Of a stretch of DNA of 64,000 nt, positions 11,600 through 54,183 are shown piece after piece. The notes under the pieces are model-generated. The model had not been told where the DNA came from. It made no database searches and saw nothing but the letters and a program-made list of their open reading frames with translations. The position numbers and the translations under genes are program-made. Source of the stretch: Saccostrea cucullata (taxonomy: Eukaryota); contig NW_026919438.1 in assembly GCF_032062105.1 (NCBI RefSeq), forward strand, positions 1-64,000, read 5' to 3'. The first letter of the stretch is position 1, and every line of letters starts with the position of its first letter.

Positions 11600-13047
11600 A
11601 TGGAACAAACTACGTATTCACCTAGAGATATGGAATTGACCGGAGACGCGAGTGATAGTCCTATAGCTGAAACACCAAGAAGTGCGAGGAATATTCCGAG
11701 AAGGGAATATGGTTCATCAGCAAGACGAAATTTAATGGTGAATTTTAATGAGGCGGAGAACGTTAATTCGCCTATTCATGCAAGTACTCCTGCATGTTCA
11801 GAGCCGGACCAACAGACCGATTTTAATCAGGAATCCAGTGAAAGCGAAACTTCACAATGGAAAAACTTCATGTGTTTATGGGGTTTGGTATTTCTGGCAG
11901 GAACTGTAGGTTTATACCTTTTGTATAAATATTTCCCAGGATATATGCTGCTATGCCTAACACGGGAATTTCTGATGACAGGAACACTGGCAATCTTGTG
12001 CGTTATACTTATTAGTATTATTTGCAAGCTGGCATTTAGAGATGATCTTGTAAGTGGGCGCAACAGAAACACAGAAAGGAATTTAACATCAAGGACCCCT
12101 ATACCACGACGAACTCCAAGTCTCTCGCCAGGCGTTAACCAGAATGTAATGTCAGGTGTTCAACCCTCCCTATCTAGGGTTCCCAATACAAGGAATACAC
12201 CAGCGCAACAGATAAATGTGAAAAGAACATTTAAGGGAGATGGCACAGATATTTGGAGTGAATACATACGATATTTTGAAAATATTTCAGAACTAAATGG
12301 CTGGGATAATGACAGAAAACGAAAAGTATTTTTCACAGTGTTGCGGGGACAGGCAGAAACATTCTGTTACGGATTATCCGATTCCGAGCGGAGCGACTGG
12401 AAACTGTTAACAGAGTCAATGAACCGGAGATTTGGTCACATGGCTATGAAAGAGAGCTACATTACGGAAGCAAAGTTGCGATTTAAGAAGCATGGCGAGA
12501 CTTTCCGAGATTTTGGACAAGCTATCCAAGATTTATACAGACGAGCTTATCCGGAAAGCAGGGAATATGTACAGGAAGCTAGTCTCAAGACTTTCCTTGA
12601 CAACTGTAGTGAATCAGGAGTTTTGTTTAGCTGTTAAGAGAACACGACCAAAGACTATTGATGAAGCAGTTACAGCAGCAATGCAGGAAGAGTGCATTAG
12701 ACTCACAGAGAACCGGAAACCTAGAGATCAAAGGATCATGAAACCCCCAGTTTACCAGGTATGGTCAAATTCTACTAAAACCGGAAATTAAGACGGATAT
12801 GCTAGAGCCACAGGATACAGTCCAGAGACGGTACTATAACAACAATAATAGTGTGACGACAGGTACGAATTATCAAGCGAGGGACAAGAAATTGTGCTAT
12901 CATTGTAACTCAAGTCAACACTTAATCCGAGATTGTCCAAAGAAAGCAACTTCAAAGAAAATGCAAAACACAGGTGCGACTTTCCAAAAGAGGAAGAATC
13001 AGGAAACACCCGAGCAGCAGTTAAACGACATTCGACCGAGGCAGTAG
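11600..13047 (+). pseudogene. gag: Gag with N-terminal hydrophobic (TM-like) pair, capsid-like domain and CCHC knuckle; two frameshifts (~12620, ~12790)
   Basis: FKGDGTDIWSEYIRYFENISELNGW...LRGQA capsid-like region; RPKTIDEAVTAA in the second frame; CYHCNSSQHLIRDC knuckle in the third frame. Confidence 0.85.
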
Positions 13048-16000
13048 GCCGTGTGTCGGTCACAATGCACCACAGGCCTAATACATTGGATTTGCAACAT
13101 TCCGTTTCAGAGAACAGGGAGACTAGAAATGAAGCTAAATTGCTTGAGAAGCTTTCTGTGGTAAACTCCGAGGAAGGAGAATCTCCAGTTTTTAATAAGG
13201 AAGCGGGTGTAAATGATGCAACGCACATCGGTGTAAACTCCAAGCAGGGCGAGGACCGGAAATTTAAGGTTAAAGGATCCTGTGACATGAGGATCAATGG
13301 ATGGGTAGAAGGGACTCCCCTTGAATGGAAAATCGATACAGGTGCGGTTAATACCTTTATTACGGAAGATACATTTTACAATATCTTACCGGAAATTAGA
13401 CCTGTGCTGGAACGCGTGCAGAAGAAATTTCACATAGCTGATGGAAATGAATTACAGATTCTAGGGACTGCAAAGATGATTTTAAGTTTTGGAGAAAAAG
13501 ACGTTTTATTTCGTGTTTTTGTCGGAGGAGTTAAGTGCAATCTCCTGGGACAGGATTTCATGAGACAATTTAAGTGCAACTGGGATTACAGTGAAAATTC
13601 GTTGATGTTAAATTTTGATTCGTACAATCAAGGAGGAGATTTCAGTCATAGAACTTTGCGGGTTTTGTCCATAGAGGATTGTGTTATACCCGGGCGACAT
13701 GAAGCTTTGATTAAAACTAGGATACGATGCACGGAAAATCTTGGTGATGGAATCTTATTGCCGATTAAGCAGTTCATGCATGTTTATGGATTAATGATTG
13801 CGCATGCTCTTGTAAACGCTGACTTAAAGGAAGTGTTTGTGCGTGTATTTAATCAGTGTGATAACGATATTTTGGTGAAAAAGGACACAGATGTAGCACT
13901 GTTTTCACCTGTGAAATATATTAGTGAACATATTCATGAACAAGGAGTATTTGATGTAGATTTTAAAAGGAAATCTGAGGATTTGCCGGAACATCTAAAG
14001 AAGTTGTATTCAGAGGGATGTGAACATTTAACAGAGGAAGAAAGTATTACTTTCAAGGAATTTTTAATGGAATTCAAAGGAGCATTTGCTGACCCGAACC
14101 AACCAATGGAGCGTGCTAATTTTGGAGAGCATTGCATTAAATTGAAAAATGAATCGCCGTTTAAGGAACCACCCAGGCGAGTCCCTATATTTAAAAGGGA
14201 AATACTGGACACGGAAGTTCGGAATTTTGAGAAGCATGGACTTATAGAGGAGTCTATTAGCCCTTGGTCATCACCCCTTGTACTGGTGCAGAAAAAGGAC
14301 AAAAGCTGGAGAGTGTGCGTAGACTATAGGAAACTCAACGCTCAAACAATTAAGGATGCTTATCCCATTCCAAGGATTGCCGATAATTTAGATTCATTGG
14401 CGGGATCTAAATGGTTTACTTCATTGGATTTAAACATGGTATACCATCAGATTCCAATGTCGGAGAGTGACAAGGAAAAGACTGCTTTTGCAACACCACG
14501 TGGAGGATTGTACCAGTACCGAGTTATGCCTTTTGGACTATGTAACGCGCCTGCAACTTTTCAGCGTGTTATTGAGAGAGCATTACAAGGACTACAGTGG
14601 CATATAACAGTACTTTACTTGGACGATATAATTGTGACTGGTCGAGATTTCTCAGGTCATCTGAAAAACTTACGACAAGTGCTCGATCGACTACGGCAAG
14701 CAAACTTGAAGCTTAAAGCGAAAAAGTGCAAATTCTTTCAAAAGGAAGTGATATTCCTCGGACATATTGTGTCAGAAAACGGTGTTAAAACTGATCCGGC
14801 GAAAACTAGAGCTGTCGAGGAATGGAAATCACCAGAGAATGTATCTGAATTAAGGAGTTTCTTAGGACTTGTGTCATATTACAGGAAATTCATCAAAAAC
14901 TTTGCCGAAATAGCAAAATGTTTACATGCACTTACAAGTAAAAATTCTAAATGGGAATGGATGAATGAATGTGAAAATGCATTTCAAATGCTGAAATCAA
15001 AACTAGTGACTGCTCCCATACTAGGATATCCAGATACGGATGGAGGTGTATTTATTCTAGACACTGATGCTAGCAACAACGCAATTGGAGCTGTTCTGTC
15101 ACAAATTCAAGACGACAAGGAAATAGTTATTGAGTACGCTAGCCGAACTTTGAATAGTGCAGAGAGAAATTACTGCGTTACTCGGAAAGAAATGCTAGCG
15201 CTTGTGTATTTTATAAAGCATTTCAAACATTATTTGCTCGGGCGGGAGTTCATTCTTAGAACTGACCACGGATCATTAGTGTGGCTGCACAAATTTCGGG
15301 AGCCAGATGGACAAGTAGCGAGATGGCTTCAACAACTGGGACCATACGTATTTCGCATTGTGCATAGACCAGGTAAACGCCATGGAAATGCTGACGCATT
15401 ATCCAGAATCAGTGACAGTTTAATCTGTAAACAATGCAAGCGCTACATTCACGAAGAATCGACAGAAGAAACTTTCACTCATGTAGACGAATTAAGAAAA
15501 CTATGTGAATCCCCGGATTGCTACAAACAGAACACAGAAGTTTTAGATATCGGATGTTTGTTATATCCCGGAAGTTATCCGAATCCGGATGCGTGTCAAG
15601 TAGAATCAACAAATGAAAACAGTAAAACGGCTAGGCGTAAGAAAGTCAAAAACAGACCCCCTCCAGCGAGGCAACGGAAACAACCAACAGAGTCTCTGAC
15701 AGTTGAAAATATACGTAAGCGCCAACACGAAGATCATGAGATGTCTGAACTACTGCGCTTAAAGGAAAAATTGGATTCTGTGAAACCTGCGATAAGTTCT
15801 ATTTCTCATACCAGTTTTGAGTTCAAATTCTGGTATTCTAGGTGGGAAATGTTAACAGTTGATCGTGGTTTACTATGTTACCGGTGGATAGAAAAAGACA
15901 GTGAAACACTTAAAATATGTATTCCCAGGACTTTACGTGACAGTGTAATGTGGTATTTACATGATTCAAAAACTGCCGGACATATGGGAATTAGGAGGAC

Positions 16001-17261
16001 TGTTTCAAAGTTAATGAATAGTCAGTACTACTGGCCACAGCTGAAGCTATATGCTCAAGATTATGTATCGTCATGCGATATTTGCGAAGAGAGGAAAAAT
16101 CCAACAAGGAAGAAGCGATCTTACATGAAGACGTATTTAAGTGGTGACAGGTTCCATAGAATAGCCGCGGATATTGCAGGACCATTTCAGAAATCAGAAA
16201 ATGGATACTTGTACATATTAGTCGTCGCTGATTATTCTACTAAATTTTGTGAAATTTATCCCTTACGTGATATGGAAGCTGAAACTGTGGCAGAAACATT
16301 ATTCAAAGGTTGGATTAAACGATACGGATGTCCGTTAGAAATACACTCTGATCAAGGTAGACAGTTTGAAAGTCAACTATTTCAAGAAATGTGCAGATTA
16401 CTTCAGATCAACAAAACACGGACAACTGCTTACCATCCGCAGTCCGACGGGATGGTAGAGCGATTAAACCGAACTATAAAGGAAATGTTATCGAAATACA
16501 TTTCAGCTCATCAGACAGACTGGGACAAGTACATAGACGGGATCGTTCTGGCCTATAATAGTACACCCCATGAAACAACGACTATATCTCCGTATAGAAT
16601 GGTGTTCGGTACAGAGCCCTCACTACCCTTAGATGTTATGACTACAGAATTAACCGAAGAAGAACCAGTTCGGAAAAATGATTCGGAATATGTGAGAAAC
16701 TTGGAAAGTGAACTATATTTTGTGCACAATCTTGCGAGAGAAGTTACAGGAAAATTATCGCAAAGACAAAAACATTATTATGACAGAAATGTTTGTAATG
16801 TGAATTATGACATTGGAGATAAAGTGAGGCGAAATCAACGCCAAATTATTACAGGGACGAAAGCAAAACTAGCAAGGAACTGGACAGGGCCATGGTTTAT
16901 TGTGAAAAGACTGAGCGATACGCTTTATCAAATTCAACATTCCAAAAACTCCAAGCCTGTGATAGTGCACGCCGACAATATCAAACCATACAGGGGGAAT
17001 AAACAATTGCGCCCAGTTCCTGAATCCGAATATACAACTGGCGAGACAGCAGGTGCCCCGCGACGTCGCGTGCCAGCTGCGAGAGAGAGACCAATGACCA
17101 AACGATTGAAGTTACCGCCAGAGCCGCGACCCGAGACTGTCACAGCGGAACAGTCACATGCCGACAGCCAATCAGAAGCCGTCATTAGAACAACACGACT
17201 TGGGAGAGTTATAAAAAGACCACTTCGGTACCAGACTGACCATTCTCCAGATGATTTGTGA
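12933..17261 (+). CDS. pol: Pol polyprotein: aspartic protease, dUTPase-like insert, RT, RNase H, integrase
   Basis: IDTGA (protease); CVDYRKLN, MPFGLCNAPATFQR, YLDD (RT); TDAS, TDH, NADALSR (RNase H); HHCC, ADIAGP, SDQG, VERLNRT (integrase); open for 1442 codons. Confidence 0.97.
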   Translation: MSKESNFKENAKHRCDFPKEEESGNTRAAVKRHSTEAVGRVSVTMHHRPNTLDLQHSVSENRETRNEAKLLEKLSVVNSEEGESPVFNKEAGVNDATHIGVNSKQGEDRKFKVKGSCDMRINGWVEGTPLEWKIDTGAVNTFITEDTFYNILPEIRPVLERVQKKFHIADGNELQILGTAKMILSFGEKDVLFRVFVGGVKCNLLGQDFMRQFKCNWDYSENSLMLNFDSYNQGGDFSHRTLRVLSIEDCVIPGRHEALIKTRIRCTENLGDGILLPIKQFMHVYGLMIAHALVNADLKEVFVRVFNQCDNDILVKKDTDVALFSPVKYISEHIHEQGVFDVDFKRKSEDLPEHLKKLYSEGCEHLTEEESITFKEFLMEFKGAFADPNQPMERANFGEHCIKLKNESPFKEPPRRVPIFKREILDTEVRNFEKHGLIEESISPWSSPLVLVQKKDKSWRVCVDYRKLNAQTIKDAYPIPRIADNLDSLAGSKWFTSLDLNMVYHQIPMSESDKEKTAFATPRGGLYQYRVMPFGLCNAPATFQRVIERALQGLQWHITVLYLDDIIVTGRDFSGHLKNLRQVLDRLRQANLKLKAKKCKFFQKEVIFLGHIVSENGVKTDPAKTRAVEEWKSPENVSELRSFLGLVSYYRKFIKNFAEIAKCLHALTSKNSKWEWMNECENAFQMLKSKLVTAPILGYPDTDGGVFILDTDASNNAIGAVLSQIQDDKEIVIEYASRTLNSAERNYCVTRKEMLALVYFIKHFKHYLLGREFILRTDHGSLVWLHKFREPDGQVARWLQQLGPYVFRIVHRPGKRHGNADALSRISDSLICKQCKRYIHEESTEETFTHVDELRKLCESPDCYKQNTEVLDIGCLLYPGSYPNPDACQVESTNENSKTARRKKVKNRPPPARQRKQPTESLTVENIRKRQHEDHEMSELLRLKEKLDSVKPAISSISHTSFEFKFWYSRWEMLTVDRGLLCYRWIEKDSETLKICIPRTLRDSVMWYLHDSKTAGHMGIRRTVSKLMNSQYYWPQLKLYAQDYVSSCDICEERKNPTRKKRSYMKTYLSGDRFHRIAADIAGPFQKSENGYLYILVVADYSTKFCEIYPLRDMEAETVAETLFKGWIKRYGCPLEIHSDQGRQFESQLFQEMCRLLQINKTRTTAYHPQSDGMVERLNRTIKEMLSKYISAHQTDWDKYIDGIVLAYNSTPHETTTISPYRMVFGTEPSLPLDVMTTELTEEEPVRKNDSEYVRNLESELYFVHNLAREVTGKLSQRQKHYYDRNVCNVNYDIGDKVRRNQRQIITGTKAKLARNWTGPWFIVKRLSDTLYQIQHSKNSKPVIVHADNIKPYRGNKQLRPVPESEYTTGETAGAPRRRVPAARERPMTKRLKLPPEPRPETVTAEQSHADSQSEAVIRTTRLGRVIKRPLRYQTDHSPDDL
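13020..13061 (+). promoter_or_regulatory. Candidate -1 ribosomal frameshift signal (gag-pol)
   Basis: G_TTA_AAC in the gag frame at 13020-13026, 7-nt spacer, stem GACCGA (13034-39)/TCGGTC (13056-61); pol is -1 relative to the gag C-terminal frame. Confidence 0.6.
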
Positions 17262-18030
17262 ATATTGTGGGTGTGTGTTTTCGACAAATAGTCACTTGTA
17301 CCAGCATCAACGCGAACAACATAGAAGTGATTTGAATGTTATTAAATGTGAATATTGCCAAAAACTCTTTACTAGAAAATCAAATCTTAAAAGACATGTT
17401 AAAAACGTCCATAAGTTAGACGAGGACTTCATCAATGAGGCCTTAAATCCCCCGCGGAAGAAGATTCAACGACACAGCTTCATGGAGACCCGGAAACCGG
17501 TGTACGTTATGAGTGACTTTTATGAGGACATTTCCTCCGATGAGGAAGAGATGCATTATGCTGAGACTGCGCAGCCACTCGTTAGGGATTCATATCCGGA
17601 CTTAGACATCATTTCAGTGAATTCGGAAGACTTGCCGGAAGTAGATGACGCTTTTGTTAGTGAAATTCTGGGCGACATAGAAGAGGAAGAAACGTGTGCG
17701 CGACCAACAGAAGAATCTCTCGAGTCACCAGACGTGAGCGAAGCCGCGAACTCGTCATCAGAGGACAGTGATATGTATGACATGGACGATAACAACAATC
17801 GCGTAAGTGTCGAGACGTCAACCATATGCCTGGTGATGAAGAAGACGATTCGGACTAATCCTGACGGCACCGAGGAGATTAATCGCGAATCTCAAATTAT
17901 CTACTCAGAGAACGTAAATCCAGAGGAAGTAGACTTTCGTGATCTTGCCGAGGAGATTCTGGATGAGGTTCCGCGACACCTAGCGCCGAGTGCCCGTGTG
18001 CGGATAGTAAAGGGAGATTTGTCCTTGTGA
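17251..18030 (+). CDS. Gypsy ORF3: two C2H2 zinc fingers, basic NLS-like patch and long acidic region (259 aa)
   Basis: CEYC-x12-H-x4-H twice, PRKK, then a D/E/S-rich tract; lies between pol and the PPT, overlapping the end of pol; homologue at 44782. Confidence 0.85.
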   Translation: MICEYCGCVFSTNSHLYQHQREQHRSDLNVIKCEYCQKLFTRKSNLKRHVKNVHKLDEDFINEALNPPRKKIQRHSFMETRKPVYVMSDFYEDISSDEEEMHYAETAQPLVRDSYPDLDIISVNSEDLPEVDDAFVSEILGDIEEEETCARPTEESLESPDVSEAANSSSEDSDMYDMDDNNNRVSVETSTICLVMKKTIRTNPDGTEEINRESQIIYSENVNPEEVDFRDLAEEILDEVPRHLAPSARVRIVKGDLSL

Positions 18031-18457: not shown

Positions 18458-18736
18458 TGTAGCGAATTATTATGTAACTATGATTTGTTTATATAACATT
18501 GCTCCTCGCGAGCAATGGGTTTTTGATTACATTGCATTGCTCCTCGCGAGCAATGGGTTTTATGTATAAATATAGGAGCGATTTTAGACAGTTAGTCAGT
18601 CAGTTTTTCATATTCATTACGATCACTTCGGACAATTTTTATTTGGATTTTTATACTTACTGTGTTTATGTTATCGTGGATTTTAAAATGTGAATAAACC
18701 GTAAACTTGATTACTTGCGTATCATTTCAAGAATAT
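18458..18736 (+). repeat. 3' LTR, missing the last 64 bp
   Basis: Matches 9520-9798 with 4 substitutions. Confidence 0.95.
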
Positions 18737-43793: not shown

Positions 43794-43992
43794 AGAAGGA
43801 TATGGAAATAACGAACAGTATTCAATCTCAACGTCCATTAAACAAATATACAAAATAAGAGTAGAGCAAACACGGACCTCCGAAACATCAGAGGTGGGAT
43901 CAGGTGCCATGGAGGAGTGAGCATCCCCTGCCGACCGGTCACACCCGCCGTGTGCTCGTTGTCATAATCAGGAAATAACGGAAAAAATCCGT
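43794..43992 (-). repeat. Dispersed structured repeat, copy 3
   Basis: Near-identical reverse complement of 47236-47434. Confidence 0.8.
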
Positions 43993-44156: not shown

Positions 44157-46282
44157 TGTAGCGAATTATTACGTAACAATGATTTGTTTATATAACATTG
44201 CTCCTCGCGAGCAATGGGTGTTTTGTTTACATTGCATTGCTCCTCGCGAACAATGGGTTTTATGTATAAATATGTGAGGAAAGTGAACTATATTTTGTGC
44301 ACAATCTTGCGAGAGAAGTTACAGGAAAATTTTCGCTAAGACAAAAACATTATTATGACAGAAATGTTCGTAATGTGAATTAAGACATTGGAGATAAAGT
44401 GAGGCGAAAGCAACGCCAAATTATTACAGAGACGAAAGCAAAACTAGCAAGAAACTGGACAGGGCCATGGTTTATTGTGTTAAGACTGAGCAGTCGCAAC
44501 CCGTCATAGTGCACGCCGACAACATCAAACCCTAGCGCGGAGATCAACAGCAGCCCCACTACACAACCAGCGAGACAGCGGAATACACGGGTGGCGAGAC
44601 ACCAGATGGTCAACAACTGCACTCGTCTGGACCAGGCCGGCGGCGTTTCAAGTTACCGCTAGCTCCACCCCCGAGAACAGACAATTCGGAAGCTGACCAA
44701 TCAGAACCAATAATGAAGATGACCCGAAGAGGACGGACTATAAGAAGCCCCATCCGTTTCAGAAATTAAAACATTCGACAAATGTTGTGCGAGACTTGCG
44801 GAAAGACATTCAGCACAAGCAGTAATCTTCGCCAGCATACCAGAGAGAAACGTAGTGATCATGTAAATAGTTTACTGTGTAGTTATTGCCAGAGACCCTT
44901 TTTGCGAAAATTTAATTTGAAAAGACACTTGACTTCAGTTCACAAACTGAATAGTAAACATTTAGAAGCAGCCATGTCCTCAAAGCGGAGACGAGTCGAG
45001 CGTGATGTCTTCTTTGAAACCAGGAAACCGGTGTACGTTATGAGTGACTTTTATGAGGACATTATCTCCGATGAGGAAGAGATGCATTATGCTGAGACTG
45101 CGCAGCAACTCGTTAGGGATTCATATCTGGACTTAGACATCATCTAAGTGAATTCGTAAGACTTGCCGAAAGTAGATGACACTTTTGTTAGTGAAATTCT
45201 CGGCGACATAGAAGAGGAAGAAACGTGTGTGCGACCAACAAAAGAATCTCTCGAGTCACCAGACGTGAGCGAAGCCGCGAATTCGTCATCAGAGGACGGT
45301 ATTATGCATAATATGGACGATAACAACAATTGCATAAGTGTCGATAACCATATGCCTGGTGATGAGGAAGACGATTCGGACTAATCCTGACGGTTCCGAG
45401 GAATCGCGAATCTAAAATTATCAACTCAGAGAACGTGAACCCAGAGGAGTAGAATTTCTTGATCTTGCCGATGAGATTCTGAATGAGGTTCCGCGACACC
45501 TAGCGCTGAATGCCCGCGTGTGGGTAGTAAAGGGAGATTTGTCCTTGTGAACAATGTATATTCGTGAAACAAATTTGAGGCCATACTGAAAAAGTTGTGA
45601 ACTCTAACAAAAGACTTGTGGTCTATTAACAAGCTTTTATGTATATAATATTTAATTATTTTGACTTTGATTTTTATTATGTTTTAATGTCATGTTTGTA
45701 AATATTTTTTTTTTTGTGTGCTTTATTTGTCCGAAGGTGATTTATTGTTTACGTAGACTAGGTTTGCTAGGTGTAAGTTAACATGTTCACTGTTTCAACA
45801 AAATAATTTTATTATGGATTGTGTAGTAAAAATTAACTGATTTAGAAAGAAATAATTGTTTATATATAGCTAACGTTTAATTGTTTATGTATTTCCTTTA
45901 AATTTTACCATCATGTTTAACTTCAAAAAAATAATTTTAGTTGTATATTGTTTAATCATTTTGAACGGAGTTTAAAACTTAAGTGGGGGGGAGTTGTAGC
46001 GAATTACAAAGTAACAATGATTTGTTTATATAACATTGCTTCTCGCGAGCAATGGGTTTTATGTATAAATATAGGAGCCATTTTAGAAAGTCAGTCAGTC
46101 AGTTTTTGATATTCATTACGATCACTTCGGACAATTTTTATTTGGATTTGTTATATACTTACTGTGTTTATGTTATTGTGGATTTTAAAATGTGAATAAA
46201 CTGTAAACTTGATTACTTGCGTATCACTTCAAGAATATTCATTGGGAGAAAAGGAAAACACTGAGAGTTATTCCCCTTAGAC
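44157..46282 (+). mobile_element. Internally deleted derivative of the same Gypsy family (partial 5' LTR, integrase tail, ORF3, PPT, 3' LTR)
   Basis: LTR start at 44157 joins pol position ~16687 at AATAT (~44269-44273); ORF3 homologue; 3' UTR closely matches 18030-18457; 3' LTR 45995-46282. Confidence 0.93.
44782..45549 (+). pseudogene. ORF3 homologue (C2H2 x2 plus acidic region), with stops and frameshifts
   Basis: MLCETCGKTF...CSYCQRPFLRKFNLKRHLTSVH; from ETRKPVY onward near-identical to 17484-18030; stop at 45145-45147. Confidence 0.85.
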
Positions 46283-47235: not shown

Positions 47236-47434
47236 ACGGATTTTTTCCGTTATTTCCTGATTATGACAACGAGCACACGGCGGGTGTGACCGCTCGGCAG
47301 GGGATGCTCACTCCTCCATGGCACCTGATCAAACCTCTGATGTTTTGGAGGTCCGTGTTTGCTCTGTTCTTATTTTGTATATTTGTTTATTGGACGTTAA
47401 GATTGAATACTGTTCGTTATTTCCATATCCTTCT
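47236..47434 (+). repeat. Dispersed structured repeat, copy 4
   Basis: GAGCACACGGCGGGTGTGACC...GCACCTGATC...CCGTGTTTGCTC. Confidence 0.8.
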
Positions 47435-49022: not shown

Positions 49023-50633
49023 CTATTTATTTCTCCGCTTTGAGTACACTTGTTTAATATAGCGCATCCATAATTTATTTCTAAAATTAAATGTTTTCTT
49101 TTTATAGTTCTTTTTTCCCTTTAGTCTTCTAGGGGCCTTTGGGTCAGCCTTGAATGAAGTAGAAGTATGTTCTCTGTTTACATTTTCATTCCAATGCAAA
49201 GTTCCAAGGAAAGCACGCACTTTATATTGTTCACTTCCAAATGCTATTCGTTTGTCTTGATAGATATTTAATGTATTATTGAAACTCTCCACAAAGTACG
49301 TATCTCTCCCTAAATTAAAATGGTCTGGGTTCTTATAAATAGTTGAATTTACTATAACACTTCTGAGTAATTTTACTGCCACTGGATTTTCAATTACAAC
49401 CTTTGAAGGTTCATAATTTGGATCTCGTTTACACCTAGAGCTGGGATGACATTGTTTGTGGCTGTTCTGGTAATGGTCCACAATATTGTCCAACAGATTT
49501 CTCAAAGTAGCTGAATTACCATCACAATACTTGGTCGCCCAGTAAAAATGTGTTGCTACAGGCTCCACTTTGTCAATCAATTCTTCAGACCATGTTTTTC
49601 CTTCCTTATATCTTGGTCCTTTTGATATATCAGTCAAGGCTTTTTTAACACTCTTGATGCCATGCCAAAGATCGTTTTGATTGCATGTAAATCCATGTTC
49701 TCTTTCCCTTACAAATTTGTTGATGGCCATATTCCTGTCGTGGGTATGTACATTCACAGAAATGTCTCTATTGTCAAAATCTTCATAAATTTTCCTTGTT
49801 CCGACTACCTCATGTCTTTGGGAAACAGGTTCCTCTGCTTTCGAGACATGGGCACAATTCAGTACTTTATGGGATTCTCCCCAATAGCAACAACACTGGT
49901 ATCTTGTGAATTTTTTCTCCATCCATGGCGGGCATCAGTTATTATGTCTATTCCATCCAGGTTTTCATATAATCCAACTTCTTCTAAAATAGCAGTAGTG
50001 CACGAATCCCCATATTCTTCTTTTACAAATTGCTTATACATTTTGAAAAATGTATCTCGTTTCTCTACGGAAAGAATTCCAAGAGCATTACAGAATCGGG
50101 AATAATGAGAAGGTAATTTTCCGCTGCATAGAAATGCATGGTAGATTCTTTTGTTAACAAGGTATTTCCCGTTGGGTAAGTATGGAGAAGATGCCCAAAT
50201 ATAGGAATGTTTTCCTAGGTCCCCCCGGGTACGTTTAAATTTACGAATGCACATGACTTCTCTTAGTGACTTTTTTGATTTCTAGAATTCCTCTGCAGTA
50301 CTTTCCATGGGTTGCTTGAATATCCATCAGTTTTTTGATAGATTGCATTGATGTTACAAAAAAGTCCTGCTTCACTTGACTCTTCTTTACTTTGGTATAA
50401 GTTCCCGGTGACTTGAAATCACCACTTTTACTCACTTCTAGGGATTTTCTCCAAGCATCCATCAATGATTCCATTATGTCAGTGTTGTTGACAGGTCTCC
50501 CTAACTTACTGACCAAAACCTCCCTTACTTTCTGAAGACTTTGCATTATTTCTTGCTTTTTTCCTTCAGTAATTGGCATCTCAAACTTGAAATTGGCAGG
50601 CCGTTTTCGCTTGGTTTCTGCCATTTTCTTCAC
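49023..50633 (-). pseudogene. Kolobok-like DDD/E transposase, two frameshifts (~50245, ~49875)
   Basis: Three overlapping ORFs join into WASSP...VN.R, IITDARHGWRKN, THDRNMAINK, NDLWHGIKSVKK, HFYW, TYFVESFNN, LHWNEN; TTAA followed by AGG at 48849-48855 may be one terminus. Confidence 0.7.
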
Positions 50634-51813: not shown

Positions 51814-52744
51814 ATGTCATGTTTAACAGTTTGAATACACGAATTAATGAAATTTATGTTTTTGTGAGAATTACATTTGTTTGCAGCTTCATATACTATA
51901 CAAGTCTTATCTGTTGACTGGTCAGTGCTTATGTGTTAATTACTTGTATTCTGCGCTGTGAACAGCGGTCAGTTGATAACAGCCTGAAACAGCAGGATGC
52001 ACTTTTATATGTTCTTGTTTACATACAGTGTGTTCTTTATCTCTTCATCAAATAAAAGGAATTAATGGACTTTTCTTTCTCTTTGCTGAGTAAGAGAATT
52101 AGGCATATTAACCATATAATAAGAAGCCATTTTGAATGCGTCCATAGAGATTAGAGCTTCCGGTGTAAATACAAACAGAGCTTTGCTAGCTGTCTATCGA
52201 AACAGGCAGATTTTGAAAATCAGTGTCACTTCAGAATTTCAATTGATAAATTCTCCCTTTTTACAAACATTAGAAATATAGTCTTAGCATTTTCTTAATG
52301 CAGAATAGTAAACTTTATTTACAGAACAACTATCTCAAAATGGTAATTGGTGCTATAAGTATGAATTAAAAAAAATATCCCCTGAAGTGAAGAGTGGCAA
52401 GAAAATTGAAATTTCCACCATTTTCCTGATTGGCTGCTATTTATACCCCAGAACCGGGCTTTTACTGACTTTTATCAATGGTCCAATCAGAAAGCTCGAA
52501 ATATTAGGGCGAAAATTCTCCTTGAAACAGCGCGGGAATTTATTCCGGAAAATAACCCGCGAAAATATCGGGGGTTTTCGTAATAGAGGTGCGAAAGTAT
52601 CGACAGCATTCGATAGATTTCGTTATCATTTCCCGCGCTCCAACCGGCATATTATTGGTTCTATTGACTCTCGGAACATTCCGTAGTCATTTCCCGCTAA
52701 CTCTTCGTGATATTCTGTGCATTTAGTCATTAACTTAGATTAAG

Positions 52745-53762
52745 TTGAGGAGGGTGAACGTACTAGGTCTAGATGATTTGCATTTGTCGACTATTAACCT
52801 GGGCGATTTAGACTTTTTTAACATGTGTGGAGTAACCGACGAAGATATCGAACTGTCGCAGGTATTTGATGCAGTTGCAGAAGAAAATGCCATATCAGAG
52901 GGTCTATGTGAAGTGCTGAATTTAAATGGTGTCGAAAATATGGACAGTGAAATTGGTACCGCATTTGGGTCTTTCAACCTAGATACAGTGGACCCTGTAG
53001 CTGATATTTCCGATGCAAAGCCTCGACCAGTTAAATCGGAACCTGGTGATGATAACAGTGAACGGTTTGGAAAACCCGTGACAGATGATGAAATTTCAAA
53101 ATTGATTGCGTCGAACGAGAATGTTAACACCAAGAAAAATACCACCTGGGCGCTCAAGGTTTTCGAGGAATGGCGAGAAAAACGTAATGGTAATTCCGTC
53201 GATGAAATACCATTTTTACATTTAATGACGGCAGAACAATTGAATTTCTACCTGGGGCGCTTTATTGTGGAAACTCGGAGAAAAGATGGCATTGAATACC
53301 TTCCCCGATCTTTGTACCTTATATTGTGTGGGATATTGCGCCACCTCAGAAATAAAAACGTTTTCGACAAAAACATTTTGGACAATAATGACCCAAGGTT
53401 TAGTGAATTCCGGAAAATTCTTGACAGCAAAATGAAAGACCTTCTGAAGCGCGGGTTTGGAACGGCGATAAAGCAAGCTGAGCCCATTATGCCACAGGAT
53501 GAGGAAAGCATGTGGGAGAAAGGTGTATTTGGGGATGGCAGTTCCGAAAGTCTTCAACATACCATGTTTTTCTATAACTGTAAACTATTTGGTTTAAGGG
53601 GGCATGACGAGCATCACGAACTTAAGTGTAGACAGTTTGTTCTTGGAGAGGACAGCTCTGGAAAATACATGGAATTCATTCGACATGCTAGCAAGACTTA
53701 CAAGGGTAGGTTGGCCAAAATGCAGCTGACAAACAAGCAGATTCGTTATTTTAGTCCACCCG
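52745..53762 (+). CDS. Crypton-type tyrosine recombinase (DUF3504/ZMYM-QRICH1-like) exon; downstream exons not found
   Basis: NTKKNTTWALKVFEEW, LNFYLGRFIVETRRKDGIEY, LDSKMKDL, AEPI...MWEKGVFG, FFYNCKLFGLRGHDEH; probable GT donor at 53763; ATTGG/CCAAT boxes at ~52430-52470. Confidence 0.8.
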
Positions 53763-54183
53763 GTAAAATACGATTTCATTTAGTTTATAATCTAATTTTA
53801 ATTTCAAAATTATATGTGCATTATTAATTACGTAACGACTTGGAAATATTCATGAATATTGTCACGGAGGTGACAGAGCAATTATAACTTTTTAATTCCA
53901 CTGTGTATATATCAATTATCAAACTGTCATAACCAAGCTTGACCTTAACTCAATACACGGCTCCCGATTCTACGAACAATGGCTCCCATTACTCCACTCA
54001 TTAAAGACTCATTATTCTTGACCACACTAGACACTGCTTTACTCTTAATTACCCCAACACAGCTTGACTAGTCGGGGCAATGCATCCAAATGCCTGTAAC
54101 TGTGGACATTTAATCATAAATCACTTCATTACTTTTGAGCCTAAAATTACCACTCATCAATAACATAACCCATATGCACCTCA

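What the first reader, a model, noticed from the sequence alone, without database searches (positions are those of the whole stretch)
11867..12037. Gag carries two transmembrane-like helices ahead of the capsid domain
Seen: FMCLWGLVFLAGTVGLYLLYKYF and FLMTGTLAILCVILISIICKLAF, several Cys, followed by an Arg-rich stretch, in the same open frame as the capsid-like domain. Established: Gypsy Gags are normally soluble, whereas mouse IAP Gag uses a hydrophobic leader for ER budding. Inference: a helical hairpin tethers capsid assembly to membranes, allowing intracisternal or vesicular particles without Env, which is relevant to horizontal transfer among aquatic hosts.
Basis: partly seen in the sequence, partly recalled or inferred. 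Interest (0 to 1): 0.75.

Follow-up and report, generated by a model that had tools for sequence, protein, structure and literature searches.

The report
Retrotransposon capsid with built-in membrane anchor
A whole lineage of envelope-less jumping genes, in what is likely a bivalve genome, carries two conserved, predicted membrane-spanning helices inside its capsid protein, which would pin particle assembly to cell membranes, something none of our literature searches found described for this class.

Summary
Observation confirmed, and it is a lineage trait. The window holds a Ty3/gypsy element without env (LTR, PBS, small Cys-rich ORF, gag, pol, zinc-finger ORF, LTR). Its gag frame encodes two hydrophobic helices (Kyte-Doolittle 2.05 and 2.67) and a 15-residue loop ahead of a PNMA2/Arc-like capsid domain.

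The hairpin is in 14 of 14 sister families sampled from this genome and in 63 of 68 close database homologues with a long enough N-terminus. It is in 0 of 30 control Gag frames from other families. Loop and second helix are under purifying selection. The Met at 12149 is not conserved, and 6 of 14 families have no Met between hairpin and capsid.

New here: 8 families add a third hydrophobic segment starting at a conserved in-frame CTG, as in glyco-Gag. The window's family has only a stop-blocked remnant of it.

Best reading: an integral-membrane Gag whose capsids assemble on, and likely bud into, ER or nuclear-envelope membrane. Insertion, budding, release and horizontal transfer are untested. 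Ten searches found no description. This copy's gag is frameshifted.

The parts
9520..11054 (+). 5' LTR, interrupted by a satellite-bearing insertion (about 9872-11047)
   Evidence: matches a sister copy's LTR at 9513-9871; 98.6% to the 3' LTR over 279 nt
11057..11075 (+). primer-binding site, a degenerate form of the motif in sister copies (tRNA-Leu assignment recalled, not from a call)
11204..11545 (+). ORF0: small Cys-rich, zinc-ribbon-like frame upstream of gag; this copy lacks the start ATG seen in sister copies
   Evidence: in 16 of 18 fetched elements; only weak Pfam hits
11555..11599 (+). hydrophobic in-frame stretch before the gag ATG, likely a remnant of the CTG-started leader of 8 sister families; an in-frame stop precedes it here
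11600..11866 (+). Gag N-terminal region, predicted disordered, with S/T-P sites and a conserved RRxL..F motif
   Evidence: pN/pS 0.33
11867..11923 (+). predicted transmembrane helix 1 (Gag 90-108)
   Evidence: pN/pS 0.55
11924..11968 (+). 15-residue loop (YKYFPGYMLLCLTRE), the most conserved part of the hairpin
   Evidence: pN/pS 0.16; 43% identity between families
11969..12037 (+). predicted transmembrane helix 2 (Gag 124-146)
   Evidence: pN/pS 0.35
12038..12208 (+). variable Arg/Ser/Thr/Pro-rich linker, with the non-conserved Met at 12149
   Evidence: (pN/pS 0.83)
12209..12613 (+). capsid domain (Ty3/Arc/PNMA fold)
   Evidence: pN/pS 0.14
12614..13047 (+). rest of gag in shifted frames, with a CCHC zinc knuckle at about 12892-12942; broken in this copy
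12909..17261 (+). pol: protease, RT, RNase H, integrase, p58-like C-terminal domain; overlaps the end of gag in another frame
17215..18030 (+). ORF3: two C2H2 zinc fingers, acidic middle, conserved C-terminal part; no transmembrane segment, not an env
   Evidence: max KD 1.09
18458..18736 (+). 3' LTR, cut short after 279 nt

Best explanation
The segment is a conserved two-helix hairpin inside the Gag of an env-less Ty3/gypsy lineage; it is predicted to span a membrane twice and likely anchors Gag in ER or nuclear-envelope membrane, so that capsids would assemble on that membrane and bud into its lumen. Shown: the sequence, its conservation, selection on it, the capsid fold and the absence of env. 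Inferred steps: (1) co-translational insertion with the N-terminal region and the capsid in the cytosol and only the 15-residue loop in the lumen; (2) Gag-Pol, likely made by a frameshift, carries the same anchor; (3) the anchor sits where matrix sits in retroviral Gag, outside the shell, so closing a shell of anchored subunits would wrap it in membrane, as with IAP; (4) the element's protease later frees the core. In 8 families a likely CUG-initiated form adds a third hydrophobic segment, most simply an N-out anchor that leaves the capsid cytosolic.
For: Hydrophobicity and shuffle tests. Two long helices in the model. Hairpin in 14 of 14 family representatives, in 63 of 68 homologues with capsid score of 150 bits or more and at least 120 residues before the capsid, in 4 of 5 at 100-150 bits and in 1 of 18 below. 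No such segment after the capsid start in those 68, in 30 control Gag frames, or in the 16 RT-search hits with a capsid match. The hairpin-bearing rows fall in one branch of 54 rows (support 100/100) against 15 rows without it. Helix spacing is 33-34 in 21 of 43 proteins while residues turn over (23-25% identity in the helices), the pattern of selection on hydrophobicity. Trp/Tyr flank the helices and Lys or Arg follows helix 2. The N-terminal S/T-P sites and RRxL motif (12 of 14 families) resemble cytosolic cell-cycle motifs (recalled). Precedents for Gag targeted to the ER: Ty1 and IAP (passages).
Against: No experiment and no dedicated topology predictor. The positive-inside bias is weak. 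Helix 1 is only moderately hydrophobic in some families (1.7-2.0) and less constrained (pN/pS 0.55). The linker is long and variable (23-90 residues in this genome, far longer in some homologues), so it could be cut before assembly. Nothing in the sequence tells ER from plasma membrane. Five of 68 close homologues lack one or both helices, and two Mytilus gene models skip the hairpin. A particle budded into a lumen without a fusogen would need a way back. The human Gag-derived protease ASPRV1 has a similar-looking hydrophobic stretch for which no membrane association has been reported (passage). Raw RNA reads over gag were near zero in two runs.
Confidence: 0.5

Rival explanations
1. Tether and release: the hairpin anchors Gag and Gag-Pol on the cytosolic face of the ER or nuclear envelope only to concentrate and place assembly, perhaps timed to the cell cycle by the N-terminal motifs. 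The protease cuts the linker and naked capsids form beside the nucleus, with no budding.
For: Long, unconstrained, disordered linker (pN/pS 0.83). RRxL..F and S/T-P sites in 12 of 14 families resemble cyclin-docking or D-box and CDK motifs (recalled). No env or other fusogen ORF, so no membrane has to be crossed again.
Against: It does not explain why the short loop, predicted luminal, is nearly as constrained as the capsid (0.16 against 0.14). Retroviral proteases usually act after assembly (recalled).
Confidence: 0.25
2. Built-in minimal envelope: Gag reaches the plasma membrane or multivesicular bodies, particles leave the cell wrapped in membrane, and the exposed loop or the CUG-extended form helps them enter other cells, replacing Env.
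For: The loop would face outward on such a particle, and it is conserved and partly hydrophobic. The CTG-started leader parallels MLV glyco-Gag (passage). Env-less cell-to-cell spread exists in the fly 412/MDG1 elements through a small membrane protein (passages). At least 14 families carry the hairpin, with LTR pairs 94-100% identical.
Against: The loop is only about 15 residues, with no ectodomain and no known fusion motif. No host-range or transfer evidence was obtained. The leader is missing in 6 of 14 families, including the window's.
Confidence: 0.17
3. Not a working anchor: the helices form a soluble oligomerisation domain, or the working Gag omits them by splicing or a downstream start.
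For: Two Mytilus gene models skip the hairpin (P0219 lacks residues 98-156 of P0060; P0064 lacks 19-155). Arc-type Gags have a soluble N-terminal helical domain (recalled).
Against: KD up to 3.7 with almost no charged residues. No conserved in-frame donor and acceptor pair in 14 families by a simple motif scan. Contigs from RNA or presumed-RNA runs cross the hairpin unspliced. No conserved downstream Met. The gene models may be prediction artefacts on broken copies (not checked).
Confidence: 0.08

Closest known systems
Ty3/gypsy (Metaviridae) LTR retrotransposons, e.g. yeast Ty3
   Same: LTRs, PBS, gag with capsid and CCHC knuckle, pol in the order PR-RT-RH-IN; Ty3 is the best solved relative of Pol (E 7.7e-119)
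   Different: Gag has an internal two-helix hydrophobic hairpin; there are extra ORF0 and ORF3; some families have a CTG-started leader
Mouse IAP endogenous retrovirus Gag
   Same: [quoted passage not shown]
   Different: IAP is a retrovirus with a hydrophobic extreme N-terminus (recalled; the primary paper was not held); here there are two internal helices with a conserved loop
MLV glyco-Gag
   Same: an in-frame upstream CUG adds a hydrophobic, ER-directing extension to Gag (passage in PMC3542737)
   Different: there the AUG form is not a transmembrane protein and the extended form is not built into virions; here the AUG form already has two helices, and the window's family lacks the CTG leader
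Drosophila 412/MDG1 sORF2
   Same: env-less gypsy elements with small ORFs before gag and a membrane protein that co-localises with capsids (passages, 10.1101/2025.03.14.642691)
   Different: sORF2 is a separate single small protein; here the helices are part of Gag, and ORF0 has no conserved hydrophobic segment
Human ASPRV1 (SASPase)
   Same: hydrophobic segment N-terminal to a capsid-like domain in a Gag-derived protein (passages, PMC11402058)
   Different: a domesticated gene with one segment that DeepTMHMM did not call transmembrane, and only half a capsid domain
Yeast Ty1 Gag
   Same: Gag routed to the ER by SRP to nucleate assembly sites (passages, PMC3945221)
   Different: [quoted passage not shown]

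Membership tests
Ty3/gypsy LTR retrotransposon (Metaviridae) | flanking LTRs and a tRNA primer-binding site | tested here: met
Ty3/gypsy LTR retrotransposon (Metaviridae) | pol order PR-RT-RH-IN | tested here: met
Ty3/gypsy LTR retrotransposon (Metaviridae) | Gag with Ty3/Arc-type capsid fold and CCHC knuckle | tested here: met
Named mollusc Gypsy clade (MolGy1-16, C-clade, Cigr-1 and others) | RT/RNase H tree position with reference elements | not testable with these tools
   no reference sequences on hand; two Pol motifs were not found in the readable supplements of PMC6238403
Errantivirus-like env-carrying gypsy elements | env ORF with signal peptide, ectodomain and transmembrane anchor after pol | tested here: not met
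   ORF3 is a zinc-finger, acidic protein with max KD 1.09; no env-like ORF after pol in the window or in the fetched elements that reach that far
IAP-type intracisternal particle former | hydrophobic ER-targeting segment in Gag | tested here: inconclusive
   hydrophobic segments are present but internal; targeting not tested
IAP-type intracisternal particle former | particles budding into ER cisternae | not testable with these tools
   needs EM
Glyco-Gag arrangement | in-frame upstream CUG in good context adding a hydrophobic leader | tested here: not met
   absent in the window's family (stop before the stretch); present by sequence in 8 of 14 families, initiation not shown
sORF2/FAST-like fusogen system | separate small single-pass membrane ORF before gag | tested here: not met
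   ORF0 is Cys-rich with max KD 0.32 in the window

The most novel reading that the evidence does not exclude
A lineage of env-less retrotransposons has built its envelope function into Gag: a double-pass capsid protein that makes membrane-wrapped particles displaying a conserved loop, with a CUG-initiated three-pass isoform, able to move between cells or animals in water without any Env or separate fusogen.
Probability: 0.17. Interest if true: 0.92.

Novelty: new variant of a known kind. Interest (0 to 1): 0.72.

Why it matters
Gag proteins reach membranes through lipid anchors, basic patches or partner proteins (recalled); a capsid precursor that is itself a two-pass membrane protein would be a different solution. 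Here it marks a diverse and recently active clade, not one odd copy. It gives a concrete handle on how env-less LTR elements assemble, and perhaps leave cells, in marine invertebrates, where horizontal transfer of the LTR element Steamer is reported (passage, PMC10294476). The conserved CTG leader would be an independent origin of the glyco-Gag arrangement outside retroviruses.

Tried and rejected
Chance hydrophobicity from T-rich DNA: rejected by shuffles and clade-wide conservation. Downstream start at 12149: rejected. Conserved splicing of the hairpin: no shared in-frame GT/AG pair by a crude motif scan. No contig joint skips it: the only joint has 910 other letters between its sides, and the joint table was cut to the best-supported rows, all inside the satellite insertion. 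Contigs drop rare forms, so this is not proof. Expression: two raw RNA runs gave depth 0-1.25 over gag and at most 2.75 elsewhere inside the element. Contigs from RNA or presumed-RNA runs cover gag but do not show transcription. Pfam found nothing for the 345-aa Gag frame. The PDB sequence search matched essentially only zinc knuckles. The protein atlas gave generic Gag clusters, queried with homologue P0049. Host range: 15 of 20 homologues looked up had no name; the named ones are Mytilus, Mizuhopecten and an invertebrate metagenome. Clade naming failed (one PDF and one slide file of that supplement were unreadable). No complex prediction was run.

Full report
Context. The window is contig C1575 of a 1.17-Gb animal genome. 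The nearest named Gag relatives are from Mytilus edulis, M. galloprovincialis and Mizuhopecten yessoensis (54-61% identity over about 43% of the query), so a bivalve host is likely but inferred. The finding lies in a Ty3/gypsy element. LTRs start at 9520 and 18458; the 5' one is split by a satellite-bearing insertion. A primer-binding site lies at 11057. Then come a small Cys-rich frame, gag, pol with PR-RT-RH-IN, and a third ORF with two C2H2 fingers. There is no env. This copy's gag is broken by frameshifts near 12620 and 12780.

The observation. The two segments are as written and in frame with the capsid domain. KD maxima are 2.05 and 2.67, against 1.17 for all of Pol. Sums on a position-free biological insertion scale (values recalled) are -1.0 and -3.5 kcal/mol. 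Base shuffles match them in 1.8% and 0.005% of 20,000 trials, uncorrected for window choice. AlphaFold2, given a 39-sequence alignment, builds helices 82-111 and 114-147 between disordered regions, and a confident domain at 201-338. The model's best matches are PNMA2, human Arc and dArc capsids.

Conservation in the genome. The search gave 131 matches, a lower bound. I examined 50 of them (30 returned, 20 chosen for diversity). Of these, 38 had an open frame with at least 150 residues before the capsid motif, and they fell into 14 families at 88% capsid identity. All 14 representatives have the hairpin. Between families the helices share only 23-25% identity yet stay hydrophobic and nearly gap-free; the loop shares 43% and the capsid 63%. 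Pooled within-family pN/pS values are: N-terminal region 0.33, helix 1 0.55, loop 0.16, helix 2 0.35, linker 0.83, capsid 0.14. These are star comparisons of related, partly decayed copies, with no significance test. As a control, 0 of the 30 best PF03732 Gag frames (of 139 matches; about six other families; several frames short or broken) has a segment of KD 1.6 or more.

Conservation elsewhere. Searches gave 210 proteins; 138 had a near-complete capsid match and 91 of these had at least 120 residues before it. Two segments were found in 63 of 68 at 150 bits or more, 4 of 5 at 100-150 bits and 1 of 18 below. The profile came from hairpin-bearing sequences, but this score uses capsid columns only. 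A capsid tree of 69 rows (near-duplicates among the top 30 hits dropped) separates 54 rows (43 with two segments, 6 with one, 5 with none) from 15 rows with none, at support 100/100. The tree is midpoint-rooted with a long-branch warning. Some one- or no-segment labels come from N-terminally cut predictions or from ignoring the first 30 residues. The 16 RT-search hits with a capsid match have no segment before it. Exceptions among the close set are P0062, P0064, P0085, P0090 and P0095. Two Mytilus gene models, P0219 and P0064, skip the hairpin relative to P0060; I did not see their DNA.

Start site and splicing. Met 12149 lies in the variable linker. Six of 14 families have no Met between helix 2 and the capsid, and no in-frame splice pair is shared. 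Contigs from RNA or presumed-RNA runs cross the hairpin without a joint. Raw reads are too few to say more.

A third segment. In 8 of 14 families the gag frame stays open upstream of the first ATG through a hydrophobic stretch, LDxF-7 residues-H. It begins at CTG with A at -3 in all 14 copies found (one has GTG) and G at +4 in 13 of them. Identity by codon position over codons 3-18 of 8 family representatives is 0.53, 0.67 and 0.39, against 0.46, 0.43 and 0.41 in the 30 bases upstream; this is a coding pattern. Four database proteins carry a similar stretch. A CUG-initiated longer Gag is the simplest reading; initiation is not shown. The window's family has a similar stretch behind an in-frame stop and without the CTG.

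Architecture. Of 18 longer stretches fetched, 16 have ORF0 and 10 have a C2H2 ORF3 by motif (others are cut or broken). Twelve show both LTRs, 94-100% identical. A sister group (L091, L092) has the hairpin without ORF0, so the hairpin is likely the older trait. In relatives at 62-65% RT identity an ORF3-like tail is fused to Pol.

Mechanism. Shown: sequence, conservation, selection, capsid fold, no env. Inferred: two helices and a short loop leave both ends of Gag on one side. Basic residues after helix 2 and cytosolic-looking S/T-P and RRxL motifs (labels recalled) make that side the cytosol, though the charge bias is weak. In retroviral Gag the membrane-bound part lies outside the capsid lattice and the RNA-binding part inside (passage, PMC13709493). 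If most subunits keep the anchor while the shell closes, the membrane must wrap it, which gives budding into the ER or perinuclear lumen (0.5). If the linker is cut first, the hairpin only places assembly (0.25). Export of wrapped particles (0.17) and a non-membrane role or bypass (0.08) are less supported.

Literature. Ten searches listed no paper on a transmembrane Gag in invertebrate gypsy elements. I saw search listings and abstract openings, plus term passages from 10.1101/2025.03.14.642691, PMC13524379, PMC12440569, PMC6238403 (supplements searched), PMC11402058, PMC3945221, PMC3542737, PMC10294476 and PMC13709493. I read no paper whole. Repbase Reports, most subscription journals and bioRxiv supplements were out of reach, so a prior note there cannot be excluded. 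Four look-ups in the scan's earlier notes returned one loosely related item.

Verdict. A real, lineage-defining and apparently undescribed feature of a known kind of element. The membrane anchor is well supported by sequence; what the particles do is open. Interest 0.72.

Noticed in passing
window 11204-11545; L081-L090, L093-L098: Conserved ~75-aa Cys-rich ORF0 just before gag (RKECPNC ... YxCxxCxCRI), zinc-ribbon-like, no clear Pfam family; in 16 of 18 fetched elements.
   Followed up: partly
window 17215-18030; L082, L084-L086, L088, L090, L093, L094, L097, L098: Conserved ORF3 after pol with two C2H2 fingers, an acidic middle and a conserved C-terminal part, resembling an element-encoded transcription factor; a similar tail is fused to Pol in more distant relatives.
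   Followed up: partly
L014, L023, L029, L031, L032, L034, L036, L042, upstream of the gag ATG: In-frame CTG-started hydrophobic leader with an invariant His, a likely non-AUG Gag extension.
   Followed up: yes
window 11600-11866: RRxL..F motif in 12 of 14 families plus several S/T-P sites, resembling cyclin-docking or D-box and CDK motifs (recalled).
   Followed up: partly
window 9872-11047, also about 2480-2935 and 5600-6850: Insertion with ~156-bp tandem units inside the 5' LTR; inverted copies lie upstream; abundant in RNA reads on both strands.
   Followed up: no
window 44157-46282: Rearranged partial copy of the same element (LTR pieces, end of pol, ORF3) between 199-nt inverted repeats at 43794-43992 and 47236-47434.
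   Followed up: no
window 52739-53824 (+) and 49026-49934 (-): Open frames of 362 and 303 aa, not identified.
   Followed up: no
proteins P0125, P0127, P0128, P0130, P0156, P0159, P0193: Distant Gags of unnamed hosts with one or two hydrophobic helices and a longer loop (~25 residues), suggesting the trait reaches well beyond this clade's core.
   Followed up: partly
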